From positions 884 through 64,883 of the forward strand of contig DASUAX010000089.1 in assembly GCA_035763525.1 (NCBI GenBank): 64,000 nt of DNA, in the 5' to 3' direction. Source of the stretch: Gaiellaceae bacterium (GTDB lineage Bacteria; Actinomycetota; Thermoleophilia; Gaiellales; Gaiellaceae). Every line of letters starts with the position of its first letter. Positions within the stretch are counted from its first letter, which is position 1. The position numbers were made by a program, and so were the translations under genes. A model generated the notes under the pieces. The model saw only the letters and a list, made by a program, of their open reading frames with translations. It ran no database searches and was not told the DNA's origin. Shown piece by piece: positions 55,641 through 57,293 of this stretch.

Positions 55641-57293
55641 GTGGAGCAAACGCTCTCGGTTTCCAACGCGGTGGCCGCCGAGCTCGCGGGGATCTCGGAC
55701 GGTGTTCTCGACGCGCTCAAGGAGCGCCTCGCGTGCAACGTCCGCCTGCGCGGGAACCAGCTGACGCTCGAGGGCGACGAGCAGCACGTGGAGAATGCCC
55801 GCGCCGTGATCGACGAGCTCGTCGAGCTGGTCGAGGGCGGGCACCAGATCGGCTCCCATACGGTCGACGCGGTGCTCGGCACGCTCGAGGCGGGCCAGGA
55901 CGTGCGCGAGGTGTTCGACGCGGTCGTCTGGCGGCACCGCGGCAAGAAGATCTCCCCGAAGACGGTGACGCAGAAGCGGTACGTCGACTCGATTCGCCGC
56001 TCCACGGTCACGTTCGGGATCGGCCCGGCAGGCACCGGGAAGACGTACCTCGCGATGGCTTTGGCGGTCGCCGCCCTGCACGAGCGAGAGGTGCAGCGGA
56101 TCATCCTGACGCGCCCCGCCGTCGAGGCGGGCGAGCGGCTCGGGTTCCTGCCCGGCGACCTGATGGCGAAGGTCGACCCGTACCTGCGCCCGCTCTTCGA
56201 CGCCCTCTACGACATGCTCGACCCCGACAAGGCGAACGCGTACATCGAGCGCGGCACGATCGAGGTGGCGCCGCTCGCCTTCATGCGCGGCCGCGCGCAG
56301 CCTTTGACGAGCGGCGTGTTGACGCCCGACGGCTTCCGACCCATCGGCGGCCTTCGCGTCGGTGATCTCGTGACCGGCTCGGACGGCCGGCCGACACCGG
56401 TGCTCGGCGTCTACCCGCAGGGGCGCAAGGAGGTCTTCCGGCTACGGACGCAGGACGGCGCCTCGACCCTTTGTTGCGGAGAGCACCTGTGGCAGATGGT
56501 GGACGGAAGCGTGCTCGAGACAGATGAGCTGCGGGACGGCCTGCGCCGCGGGGCGCAGTACGAGCTGCCGTTGCTCTCGGCGCCGGTCGAGTTCGATTCC
56601 ACGCACGTCCCGATCGATCGCCGCGCGCGTGGCGGCGCCGTGGCGACGATCACCCCGTCGGTCATGCGGAAGGAATCTCTGCGGGCCGCGCCCGTCGAGA
56701 GGATCGCGCTCCTCCAGGGGCTCCTCGACGGGGCCGGACGGGCGTCGGTCGGGTCGGCAGCCATGCGCGAACAGGTCGTCTACCTGGCGCGCTCGCTCGG
56801 AGGCGTCGCGACGTTCGAGACGGTGTCTGACGCCAAGGGTGTCAGACACCTGGTGGACGTTCGGCTGCCCGGCGCGGGTTCGCCGCCGAAGCGGTTCGTC
56901 GACTCGATCGAGCCGGCAGGCGAGGCGGAGACGGTCTGCATCCAGGTCGCTGCGGCCGACTCGCTCTATGTGACCGATGATTTCCTCGTCACGCACAACA
57001 CCCTGAACGACAGCTTCATCATCCTGGACGAGGCGCAGAACACCTCGCCGGAGCAGATGCAGATGTTCCTGACGCGGCTCGGATTCGGGTCGAAGATCGT
57101 CGTCACCGGTGACATCACGCAGATCGACCTGCCGCGCGAGTCGCGCTCCGGGCTCGTGCACGTGCGCGACGTGCTGCTAGACGTCGAGGGAATCCAGTTC
57201 GTCGAGTTCGGACACAAGGACGTGGTGCGTCACAAGCTCGTACAGCGCATCGTCGAGGCCTACAAGGAGCACACGGACGAGCGCAACACATGA
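55641..57293 (+). CDS. phoH: PhoH-family ATPase interrupted by an intein
   Basis: GTG 55641, the first start that avoids overlap with the MFS gene. Walker A [9 protein letters not shown] and [18 protein letters not shown]. FMRGR and [14 protein letters not shown] (Walker B) are separated by 235 extra codons. Confidence 0.9.
   Translation: [550 protein letters not shown]
56295..56999 (+). mobile_element. intein (class-3-like: Ala1, Trp66, Cys215, Thr233-His-Asn235, +1 Thr) with degenerate LAGLIDADG remnant
   Basis: The insert lies exactly between the conserved PhoH residues GR and TLND. It has Hint blocks A, B, F and G, ends in THN|T, and has [11 protein letters not shown] in the centre. Confidence 0.8.

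What the first reader, a model, noticed from the sequence alone, without database searches (positions are those of the whole stretch)
56295..56999. Class-3-type intein (Ala1, W-C-T signature) splitting the PhoH P-loop ATPase
Seen in sequence: PhoH reads ...[12 protein letters not shown], then 235 extra codons, then [26 protein letters not shown]. In PhoH proteins generally (for example E. coli ...[19 protein letters not shown]...) these residues are contiguous. The insert has Hint-fold blocks: A ([31 protein letters not shown]), B ([15 protein letters not shown]), F ([16 protein letters not shown]) and G (DDFLVTHN followed by Thr). Established knowledge: canonical inteins start with Cys/Ser. 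Class 3 inteins lack that nucleophile and instead carry a Trp two residues after the block B His, a Cys in block F, and a Thr before the terminal His-Asn, with the block F Cys as branch nucleophile. Here residue 1 is Ala, and W66, C215 and T233-H234-N235 fit that signature. The centre holds a single LAGLIDADG-like motif, [11 protein letters not shown], in which the second acidic residue is Ala. The inter-block region is short. Inference: this is a splicing-competent mini-intein with a decayed homing endonuclease, at a highly conserved site just before Walker B.
Basis: partly seen in the sequence, partly recalled or inferred. Interest (0 to 1): 0.8.

Follow-up and report, generated by a model that had tools for sequence, protein, structure and literature searches.

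The report
Class 3 intein inside PhoH ATPase
The 235 extra codons in this PhoH ATPase gene are a self-splicing protein element (an intein) of the unusual "class 3" type with a decayed homing endonuclease, but the same intein at the same PhoH site is already known from mycobacteria and is common in Actinomycetota.

Summary
Window 56295-56999 encodes 235 residues (Ala1...Thr233-His234-Asn235) that interrupt PhoH between ...FMRGR and [14 protein letters not shown]. With the insert removed, PhoH aligns without a gap to the solved C. glutamicum PhoH (3b85). The insert is an intein. It matches solved inteins by sequence (gp41-1, E=1.6e-12) and by predicted fold (pLDDT 93.5; best matches are the class 3 inteins MchDnaB-1 and Msm DnaBi1, and PI-SceI). 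All class 3 signature residues are present: Ala1, Trp66 (block B position 12), Cys215 (block F position 4), Thr233 (block G position 5) and Thr+1. These are conserved in 76 other species' genomes that carry the intein at the same site. The endonuclease has decayed. The closest relative, a Gaiellaceae genome, has a 359-aa version. Here about 124 residues are deleted, LAGLIDADG motif 1 is gone, and motif 2 has its catalytic Asp replaced by Ala. The splicing lobes stay under purifying selection (dN/dS about 0.13). Class 3 PhoH inteins are published for mycobacteria (Kelley 2018), and I found this allele in Mycobacterium genomes. It is a new member of a known kind and of low interest. Splicing itself is inferred, not shown.

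The parts
55641..56294 (+). PhoH N-extein (218 aa from the probable GTG start), containing Walker A GPAGTGKT at 56022-56045 and ending ...APLAFMRGR
   Evidence: Pfam PF02562 stretch 1 covers profile positions 1-117. It aligns to PDB 3b85. The start at 55641 matches the N-terminus of the closest relative L035, [17 protein letters not shown]. The longest ORF starts earlier, at 55551.
56295..56999 (+). Intein, 235 aa, Ala1 to Asn235, with the class 3 signature
56295..56387 (+). Block A / N-terminal Hint strands ([31 protein letters not shown]). Residue 1 is Ala, so there is no N-terminal nucleophile
   Evidence: Residue 1 is Ala in 74 of 77 same-site inteins and Ser in 3. It aligns to residues 7 onward of gp41-1.
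56457..56498 (+). Block B ([14 protein letters not shown]): Cys61 at position B:7, His64 at B:10, Trp66 at B:12 (the W of the WCT triplet)
   Evidence: His64 and Trp66 are invariant in 77 of 77. B:7 is Cys in 73 of 77. Codons were checked.
56610..56879 (+). Remnant of the LAGLIDADG homing endonuclease (residues 106-195). Residues about 106-125 are low-confidence linker in place of motif 1. Residues 126-190 are predicted to fold as helix-strand-helix-strand-strand, consistent with one LAGLIDADG half-domain
   Evidence: AF2 secondary structure and pLDDT. Alignment to 359-aa relatives shows about 124 residues deleted. dN/dS is 0.51, against about 0.13 in the Hint lobes. There is no Pfam LAGLIDADG hit.
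56706..56738 (+). Second LAGLIDADG motif (block E), [11 protein letters not shown], with the catalytic acidic residue replaced by Ala
   Evidence: It aligns to LLQGLLDSDGG / LLQGLLDTDGG of full-length relatives.
56928..56975 (+). Block F ([16 protein letters not shown]). Cys215 at F:4 is the predicted branch nucleophile. Tyr225 is the conserved aromatic residue
   Evidence: Cys215, Asp222, Leu224 and Tyr225 are invariant in 77 of 77. Cys215 aligns with the engineered Cys107 of 6riz.
56979..57002 (+). Block G (DFLVTHN) plus the +1 residue Thr. Thr233 is at G:5, His234 at G:6, Asn235 at G:7
   Evidence: Thr-His-Asn is invariant in 77 of 77. The +1 residue is Thr in 75 and Ser in 2.
57000..57293 (+). 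PhoH C-extein (97 aa plus stop codon), starting [14 protein letters not shown], with Walker B FIILDE at 57015-57032

Best explanation
This is a PhoH gene in a phoH-ybeY operon. Its closest relative among the genomes retrieved is a Gaiellaceae genome (Thermoleophilia, Actinomycetota). The gene is interrupted, five residues before the Walker B strand, by a 235-aa intein of the class 3 (WCT) type. The precursor of about 550 aa is translated as one chain, and the intein then removes itself. Residue 1 is Ala, so the usual N-terminal acyl shift is impossible. By analogy with characterised class 3 inteins, Cys215 (block F position 4) would attack the Arg(-1)-Ala1 peptide bond, helped by His64 and Trp66 of block B. 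This would form a thioester branched intermediate. The N-extein would then pass to the side chain of Thr+1, Asn235 would cyclise to release the intein, and an O-to-N shift would give a normal MRGR-TLND peptide bond and an active 315-aa PhoH. The LAGLIDADG homing endonuclease that once made the element mobile is dead. Its first half is deleted, and the surviving half lacks the catalytic Asp. The intein is therefore now a fixed, vertically inherited passenger kept only because it must splice. Shown here: the anatomy, the junctions, the fold prediction, the homology and the conservation pattern. Inferred: the chemistry and actual splicing.
For: The junctions are exact. Spliced PhoH aligns gap-free to 3b85, and the same MRGR|A...HN|T junctions occur in 76 other species' genomes. 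Intein identity is supported by PDB phmmer hits to gp41-1 (1.6e-12), MchDnaB-1 (2.3e-4) and Msm DnaBi1 (8.6e-4). The AF2 model has pLDDT 93.5, and its top Foldseek hits are 6rix, PI-SceI, 6riz and 6bs8 'the class 3 DnaB intein'. For the class 3 signature, Ala1 occurs in 74 of 77, and His64, Trp66, Cys215, Thr233, His234 and Asn235 occur in 77 of 77. The query scores better against the WCT-engineered gp41-1 (6riz) than against the wild type (6qaz), precisely at the W and C columns. It is homologous (32-40% identity, same W/C/THN columns) to inteins in mycobacteriophage Alice gp175 and Pseudomonas phage SL2. The definition of class 3 (no N-terminal nucleophile plus the WCT triplet plus Ser/Thr at +1) is taken from PMC2807308. 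Selection: against the closest genome L035, dN/dS is 0.135 for Hint-N and 0.123 for Hint-C, compared with 0.17 for the N-extein, 0.51 for the endonuclease remnant and 1.6 for residues 70-105. Endonuclease decay is shown. The same allele occurs in Mycobacterium, Nocardia and Rhodococcus PhoH, and class 3 PhoH inteins are published for M. fortuitum and M. xenopi (PMC6195587).
Against: There is no experimental evidence of splicing for this protein. Curated Hint HMMs (Pfam Hint_2, Hom_end_hint; NCBIfam intein models) do not reach their cutoffs. Grafting the WCT residues onto a class 1 intein was not enough for productive class 3 splicing (PMC7664689), so the signature alone does not prove activity. 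The dN/dS values come from one pairwise comparison over 40-90 codons with fairly high dS (0.4-0.9). The large deletions in the endonuclease region could in principle slow folding or splicing.
Confidence: 0.88

Rival explanations
1. It is a dead intein, that is, an intein pseudogene or a permanently retained insert. The Hint domain no longer splices, and PhoH either tolerates the 235-aa insert or is itself non-functional.
For: Non-splicing class 3-like inteins exist, for example the Arthrobacter FB24 Arth_1007 intein pseudogene (PMC3196547, listed). This copy has suffered many deletions in its centre. WCT residues alone do not guarantee splicing (PMC7664689).
Against: Every residue known to matter is intact: His64, Trp66, Cys215, Tyr225, Thr233, His234, Asn235 and Thr+1. 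The Hint lobes evolve as slowly as the host protein (dN/dS 0.12-0.14 against 0.17), while the endonuclease part is relaxed. All deletions lie outside the Hint lobes and are in frame. Still smaller versions of the same allele (151 and 187 aa) keep the same blocks. The insert sits between Walker A and Walker B in the ATPase core, so an unspliced PhoH is unlikely to work, yet the exteins are conserved.
Confidence: 0.07
2. It is an intein that splices by a different route. In a class 2-like route, Thr+1 would attack the N-terminal junction directly, without a Cys215 branched intermediate.
For: Both class 2 and class 3 inteins lack an N-terminal nucleophile (PMC2807308). The mechanism was not tested here.
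Against: Class 2 (KlbA-type) inteins lack the WCT triplet and use Cys+1. This intein has the full WCT triplet and Thr+1, the combination that defines class 3. It is homologous in sequence and predicted fold to experimentally studied class 3 inteins.
Confidence: 0.03
3. It is a still-mobile intein, whose remaining LAGLIDADG half-domain works as a homodimeric homing endonuclease.
For: Residues 126-190 are predicted with high confidence to fold as a LAGLIDADG-like half-domain. Single-motif LAGLIDADG enzymes that act as homodimers are known (general knowledge).
Against: The catalytic acidic residue of the surviving motif is Ala (DGAG in place of DSDG/DTDG). One strand of the half-domain is deleted, there is no Pfam LAGLIDADG hit even at E<=1, and dN/dS is relaxed at 0.51.
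Confidence: 0.02

Closest known systems
Class 3 PhoH inteins of mycobacteria (M. fortuitum and M. xenopi PhoHi, Kelley et al. 2018, PMC6195587 Fig. 6a; the PhoH intein of M. smegmatis, PMC7360933; 21 PhoH inteins counted by Novikova et al. 2016, PMC4760082)
   Same: The host protein is the same. Every Mycobacterium or Mycolicibacterium PhoH I retrieved has the identical insertion site and signature: PLAYMRGR|AQP...DHLW...[22 protein letters not shown]|TLN. Ala1, W, C, T-H-N and Thr+1 are all shared.
   Different: The mycobacterial copies are 338-359 aa and carry a recognisable LAGLIDADG domain (precomputed Pfam PF14528). This copy is 235 aa with the endonuclease decayed. Block B position 7 is Ser in the mycobacterial copies and Cys here. 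Full-length identity between this copy and its nearest same-site relatives is only about 45-51%. I could not retrieve the exact published accessions (OBK00716, EID13626), so their identity of site is inferred from other Mycobacterium species.
Msm DnaBi1 and MchDnaB-1 class 3 mini-inteins (PDB 6bs8, 6rix/6riy)
   Same: They share the Hint fold and the class 3 signature. They are the best structural matches to the model (TM 0.82-0.86 normalised to the target) and are detectable by sequence. They also sit in a P-loop NTPase.
   Different: The host (DnaB) and the site differ. They have no endonuclease remnant (125-131 aa). Block B position 7 is Asp. Sequence identity in the structural alignments is about 14%.
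Mycobacteriophage class 3 inteins (MP-Bethlehem DnaB, the founding member, PMC2807308; the intein in Alice gp175)
   Same: The Alice gp175 intein is 34% identical over the whole length, with the same A-x-P start, HLW, VCI, LYVT and THN|S/T columns and the same LLQGLLD second LAGLIDADG motif.
   Different: It is inserted right after the Walker A GSGK of a phage helicase or terminase, not before Walker B of PhoH. It is full length (359 aa) with an intact-looking endonuclease. That Alice gp175 corresponds to the published MP-Catera gp206 class 3 intein rests on my memory and was not checked.
gp41-1 intein (class 1, naturally split; PDB 6qaz) and its WCT-engineered form (6riz)
   Same: It is the best sequence match among solved structures (E=1.6e-12 to 6riz). 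It shares the THN ending.
   Different: gp41-1 is class 1 (Cys1, Phe at B:12, Asp at F:4). The WCT graft did not convert it into a productive class 3 intein (PMC7664689).

Membership tests
Intein (Hint-fold protein-splicing element) | An in-frame insert that interrupts a conserved host protein, and whose removal restores the uninterrupted host sequence | tested here: met
   Spliced PhoH aligns gap-free to 3b85 across MRGR|TLND. The Pfam PhoH match is split in two.
Intein (Hint-fold protein-splicing element) | Hint fold | tested here: met
   The AF2 model has pLDDT 93.5. Foldseek gives 51 PDB matches at E<=1e-3; the 50 listed are almost all inteins, plus one bacterial intein-like domain and one hedgehog autoprocessing domain, and the top ones have TM 0.79-0.86 normalised to the target. 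phmmer against solved inteins reaches E=1.6e-12.
   Hint_2 scores 15.7 bits against a cutoff of 28.4, and Hom_end_hint 11.6 against 32.1. No NCBIfam intein model matches. The same Pfam models are also below cutoff for full-length relatives and for the phage Alice gp175 intein, so the models are insensitive to this subfamily.
Intein (Hint-fold protein-splicing element) | C-terminal His-Asn followed by a Cys/Ser/Thr +1 nucleophile | tested here: met
   His234-Asn235 followed by Thr+1. This is invariant in relatives.
Intein (Hint-fold protein-splicing element) | Actual protein splicing (excision plus extein ligation) | not testable with these tools
   This needs expression, western blotting and mass spectrometry.
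Class 3 inteins (Tori et al. 2010, PMC2807308) | No Cys/Ser/Thr at intein position 1 | tested here: met
   Residue 1 is Ala (GCC... codon at 56295). It is Ala in 74 of 77 same-site relatives.
Class 3 inteins (Tori et al. 2010, PMC2807308) | Trp at block B position 12 (two residues after the block B His) | tested here: met
   His64-Leu65-Trp66. It is invariant in 77 of 77 and aligns with Trp65 of 6riz and the Trp of MchDnaB-1.
Class 3 inteins (Tori et al. 2010, PMC2807308) | Cys at block F position 4 | tested here: met
   Cys215 is invariant in 77 of 77 and aligns with the engineered Cys107 of 6riz.
Class 3 inteins (Tori et al. 2010, PMC2807308) | Thr at block G position 5, before His-Asn | tested here: met
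   Thr233 is invariant in 77 of 77.
Class 3 inteins (Tori et al. 2010, PMC2807308) | Ser or Thr (rarely Cys) at +1 | tested here: met
   Thr+1 here. Among relatives it is Thr in 75 and Ser in 2.
Class 3 inteins (Tori et al. 2010, PMC2807308) | The mechanism: a block F Cys thioester branched intermediate, with an absolute requirement for that Cys | not testable with these tools
   This needs C215A/S and N235A mutants and thiol-lability assays.
Active LAGLIDADG homing endonuclease | Two LAGLIDADG motifs (or a homodimer of one), each supplying a catalytic acidic residue | tested here: not met
   Motif 1 (DPYALGLLLGDGC in relatives) is replaced by [11 protein letters not shown]. Motif 2 reads [10 protein letters not shown], with Ala in place of Asp. 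There is no Pfam LAGLIDADG_3 hit, whereas relatives score 27-30 bits against a cutoff of 22.5.
Class 2 (KlbA-type) inteins | No N-terminal nucleophile, no WCT triplet, and Cys+1 attacking directly | tested here: not met
   The WCT triplet is present and +1 is Thr. The definition is from PMC2807308.
PhoH (PF02562) P-loop ATPase, the host protein | A match to the PhoH profile, with Walker A and Walker B motifs | tested here: met
   PF02562 at E=3.5e-91. PDB 3b85 at E=4.8e-84. GPAGTGKT and FIILDE are located. The ybeY gene lies immediately downstream.

The most novel reading that the evidence does not exclude
The intein may act as a redox-gated switch on PhoH. [quoted passage not shown] The only other cysteine in the intein is the catalytic Cys215. 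Under oxidative stress, a reversible Cys61-Cys215 (or Cys60-Cys215) disulfide could trap the precursor and hold PhoH inactive. This would resemble the Cys48-Cys118 trap shown for the class 3 Msm DnaBi1 intein (PMC6195587). Such a role would also explain why an immobile intein is kept in a housekeeping ATPase next to ybeY.
Probability: 0.12. Interest if true: 0.45.

Novelty: new member of a known kind. Interest (0 to 1): 0.15.

Why it matters
The practical value is mainly correct annotation. This gene encodes a 315-aa PhoH plus an excised intein, not a 550-580-aa 'PhoH family protein' with an unexplained insert. The locus adds one more natural class 3 intein, and together with its relatives it forms a graded series of endonuclease decay at one insertion site (359 aa, then 235, 187 and 151 aa). 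That series could guide the design of minimal class 3 splicing domains for protein engineering. It does not open a new biological question, because the class, its mechanism, its presence in PhoH and its spread in Actinomycetota are all published.

Tried and rejected
1. Curated HMMs were uninformative. Pfam Hint_2, Hom_end_hint and LAGLIDADG_3, and the NCBIfam intein models, gave only sub-threshold or no hits for the window's intein. I did not treat this as evidence against an intein, because the same Hint models fail on full-length relatives and on a phage class 3 intein.
2. I tried to find the source contig by exact look-up of the neighbouring YbeY protein. It is not on record. The genome scan found no identical copy. 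The best same-site inteins are 45-51% identical over the full length, and the closest host genome (L035, Gaiellaceae) has exteins 83-88% identical.
3. I tried to obtain the published mycobacterial PhoHi sequences from the supplements of PMC6195587 and PMC4760082. Nothing was held. I established site identity with other Mycobacterium PhoH proteins instead.
4. Tori & Perler 2011 ('Expanding the definition of class 3 inteins') is not held in the library. Statements about class 3 inteins that have Ser1 or Cys1 therefore rest on PMC2807308 only (3 of 37 WCT inteins).
5. I considered recent horizontal arrival of the intein. Its GC content (0.70-0.72) matches the flanks, so there is no compositional sign of recent transfer.
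6. I looked for a second, related intein elsewhere in the window with tblastn and found none.
7. Long ORFs on other frames and strands across the intein (for example 56442..57161 on the minus strand, 239 aa) are treated as by-products of about 70% GC, not as genes. I did not test them further.
8. I could not measure the Cys61-Cys215 distance, because model coordinates are not exposed by the tools.
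Full report

Yes. They lie inside a single ORF, 55551..57293.

The Pfam PhoH model (PF02562) matches that ORF at E=3.5e-91, but in two separate stretches. The first ends at ...MRGR, at profile position 117 of 205.

When I joined the flanks by hand, the 315-aa product aligned without a gap to the solved Corynebacterium glutamicum PhoH (PDB 3b85) at E=4.8e-84, right across ...[24 protein letters not shown].... The junctions are therefore exact.

The insertion point is 5 residues before the Walker B strand FIILDE (57015-57032) and well after Walker A GPAGTGKT (56022-56045). All residue numbers in the finding were checked at codon level: His64, Trp66, Cys215, Thr233-His234-Asn235, Thr+1, and [11 protein letters not shown] at residues 138-148.

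**2. What is it?**

It is an intein. Curated Hint profiles do not reach their cutoffs. Pfam Hint_2 scores 15.7 bits against 28.4, Hom_end_hint scores 11.6 against 32.1, and no NCBIfam intein model matches.

The test is not valid here. The same models also stay below cutoff on full-length relatives and on the intein of mycobacteriophage Alice gp175.

Direct comparisons are clear.
- phmmer against all PDB chains gives the gp41-1 intein at E=1.6e-12. It also finds the class 3 inteins MchDnaB-1 (6rix, 2.3e-4) and M. smegmatis DnaBi1 (6bs8, 8.6e-4).
- The best hit is 6riz, the gp41-1 variant engineered to carry the class 3 residues (C1A, F65W, D107C; PMC7664689). It scores better than wild-type gp41-1 (6qaz) because the query's Trp66 and Cys215 align with the engineered Trp and Cys.
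- An AlphaFold2 model built on a 52-sequence alignment is confident (mean pLDDT 93.5, pTM 0.89).
- Foldseek against the PDB returns 51 matches at E<=1e-3; the 50 listed are almost all inteins, plus one bacterial intein-like domain and one hedgehog autoprocessing domain. The list is led by MchDnaB-1, PI-SceI, gp41-1 and 'the class 3 DnaB intein from M. smegmatis'. TM-scores normalised to the target are 0.79-0.86.

**3. Class 3 signature**

Class 3 inteins are defined by three things: no Cys/Ser/Thr at position 1, a non-contiguous Trp (block B position 12), Cys (block F position 4) and Thr (block G position 5) triplet, and usually Ser or Thr at +1. The block F Cys is the obligate first nucleophile (PMC2807308).

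This intein has Ala1, His64-x-Trp66, Cys215, Thr233-His234-Asn235 and Thr+1.

I extracted the same-site intein from 76 other species' genomes. All show ...A[F/Y]MRGR | intein | [T/S]LN...DEAQN. After alignment:
- His64, Trp66, Cys215, Thr233, His234 and Asn235 are invariant in 77 of 77.
- Residue 1 is Ala in 74 and Ser in 3.
- The +1 residue is Thr in 75 and Ser in 2.
- The block F aromatic residue (Tyr225), shown to be important in MP-Be DnaB, is also invariant.

The intein is 32-40% identical over its full length to phage inteins with the same columns. One is in mycobacteriophage Alice gp175 (GSGK|AEP...HLW...VCI...THN|S), and another is in Pseudomonas phage SL2. Every sequence-level criterion for class 3 is met. 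The mechanism itself cannot be tested with these tools.

**4. The endonuclease**

Most same-site relatives are 359 aa (49 of 77; the range is 235-361). They carry two LAGLIDADG motifs...DPYALGLLLGDGC... and ...LLQGLLDSDGG.... Their second motif region hits Pfam LAGLIDADG_3 above the cutoff (29-30 bits against 22.5).

The window's copy is the shortest in the genome set. The host's closest relative among the fetched genomes is a Gaiellaceae metagenome-assembled genome (L035), with these amino-acid identities:

| Protein | Identity to L035 |
|---|---|
| PhoH exteins | 83-88% |
| YbeY | 84% |
| DgkA | 82% |

L035 has the full 359-aa intein. Against it, the window's intein has lost about 124 residues through about ten separate in-frame gaps, all outside the Hint lobes. 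Motif 1 is replaced by [11 protein letters not shown], and motif 2 reads [10 protein letters not shown], with the catalytic Asp replaced by Ala.

In the model, residues about 101-125 have low confidence. Residues 126-190 form a confident helix-strand-helix-strand-strand unit, which I read as most of one LAGLIDADG half-domain. 'Mini-intein' is therefore only approximately right: it is an intein with a truncated, catalytically dead endonuclease remnant.

Pairwise Nei-Gojobori dN/dS against L035 fits this picture:

| Region | dN/dS |
|---|---|
| Hint-N lobe | 0.135 |
| Hint-C lobe | 0.123 |
| PhoH N-extein | 0.17 |
| Endonuclease remnant | 0.51 |
| Residues 70-105 | 1.6 |

This is one comparison over few codons, so it is supportive only. 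Metagenomic proteins show still smaller versions of the same allele, 187 aa (P0008) and 151 aa (P0026), with all splicing blocks intact.

**5. How it most likely works**

The precursor is probably 550 aa, starting from GTG at 55641. This start matches the N-terminus of L035. The precursor is translated whole.

The proposed chemistry follows characterised class 3 inteins:
- Cys215 attacks the Arg(-1)-Ala1 bond, helped by His64 and Trp66.
- The N-extein moves from Cys215 to Thr+1.
- Asn235 cyclises and releases the intein.
- An O-to-N shift gives the native MRGR-TLND bond.

All of this chemistry is inferred by homology. None of it was observed here.

The insert separates Walker A from Walker B, so the unspliced protein is very unlikely to be an active ATPase (inference). 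Both the exteins and the Hint lobes are under purifying selection. I therefore judge splicing competence likely, at about 0.85-0.9.

One caveat: WCT residues grafted onto a class 1 intein did not give productive splicing (PMC7664689). The signature is necessary but not sufficient.

**6. Comparison with what is known**

PhoH is already listed among bacterial intein hosts, with 21 inteins in Actinobacteria and Deinococcus-Thermus (PMC4760082). Kelley et al. 2018 explicitly align class 3 PhoH inteins of M. fortuitum and M. xenopi with class 3 DnaB inteins (PMC6195587 Fig. 6a). M. smegmatis is also stated to have a PhoH intein (PMC7360933).

A database search seeded with the Nocardia copy returned more than 4000 proteins at E<=1e-20. 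They include PhoH of M. intracellulare subsp. chimaera, Mycolicibacterium holsaticum, M. anyangense, M. simulans, M. palauense and Rhodococcus. Each of the five Mycobacterium/Mycolicibacterium copies I checked has the identical junction and signature: PLAYMRGR|AQP...DHLW...VCI[Q/R]VAA...LLTHN|TLN.

At least 207 species-representative genomes carry a relative. They are mainly Thermoleophilia (Gaiellales, Solirubrobacterales) and Actinomycetes. This locus is therefore one more member of a known, widespread intein allele.

**7. Context and other checks**

The gene order is as follows:
- an MFS transporter on the minus strand, 54230-55618
- phoH
- ybeY, 57328-57735
- a DgkA-PAP2 fusion, 57732-58448
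- cytidine deaminase

The intein's GC content (0.70-0.72) equals that of its flanks, which fits long residence in this genome. No second related intein occurs in the window.

**8. Verdict**

Novelty is 'new member of a known kind', and interest is low (0.15).

The most novel reading not excluded is redox-gated splicing. Block B carries Cys60-Cys61 (CC in 64 of 77 relatives; position B:7 is Cys in 73 of 77). The only other cysteine is the catalytic Cys215. A reversible disulfide trap like the Cys48-Cys118 trap of Msm DnaBi1 is conceivable. I could not test it, not even by measuring distances in the model.

Noticed in passing
L009, L054 and L077 (intein at 3001-4077 of each locus); proteins P0007, P0035, P0207, P0219, P0220: A few copies of the same PhoH intein allele start with Ser (3 of 77 genomes) or Cys (P0035, P0220) instead of Ala, while keeping the full W/C/T signature. 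Either an N-terminal nucleophile has been regained or class 3 chemistry tolerates one. PMC2807308 noted 3 such cases among 37 WCT inteins.
   Followed up: partly
window 56472-56477 (Cys60-Cys61); alignment of 77 inteins: Block B positions 6-7 are Cys-Cys in 64 of 77 same-site inteins. Position B:7 is normally Thr in class 1 inteins and Asp in Msm DnaBi1. In the five mycobacterial copies checked, B:7 is Ser. With Cys215, these are the only cysteines in the window's intein, which suggests a possible redox trap.
   Followed up: partly
L001-L080 and proteins P0008, P0026: The same insertion site holds inteins of 151, 187, 235, 255, 262, 294, 304-351 and 357-361 aa. This is a graded series of what appear to be independent endonuclease deletions, with the splicing blocks untouched.
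   Followed up: partly
window 57732-58448 (+): The gene after ybeY encodes a fusion of a prokaryotic diacylglycerol kinase domain (PF01219, residues 15-115) with a PAP2 phosphatase domain (PF01569, residues 163-237) in one 238-aa protein.
   Followed up: no
window 55551-55643: The probable phoH start (GTG at 55641) lies only about 22 bp from the start of the divergently transcribed MFS transporter ORF (its longest form starts at 55618 on the minus strand). The longest phoH ORF (start 55551) would overlap it. At least one of these start codons is probably mis-placed, or the two genes share a very compact divergent promoter region.
   Followed up: no
L068 (JBLMXP010000241.1, a 2664-bp contig): A 360-aa copy of this actinobacterial PhoH intein sits on a short contig binned into a 'Planctomycetaceae' metagenome-assembled genome. 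This is most likely a binning error rather than cross-phylum transfer.
   Followed up: no
P0075 (annotated by JGI as ATP-dependent DNA helicase RecG); phage hits H1-H25: Relatives at 32-40% identity sit in other P-loop NTPases: RecG, phage helicases or 'DarB-like antirestriction' proteins, terminase large subunits, and an RNA polymerase-associated protein of an Erythrobacter phage. 199 of the 459 phage records with a hit are mycobacteriophages. This fits the published idea that class 3 inteins have a phage origin.
   Followed up: partly
window 56442-57161 (-) and 56524-56973 (+, other frame): Long ORFs of 149-239 aa overlap the intein on other frames and the other strand. In DNA of about 70% GC these are expected by chance, and nothing suggests that they are genes.
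   Followed up: no
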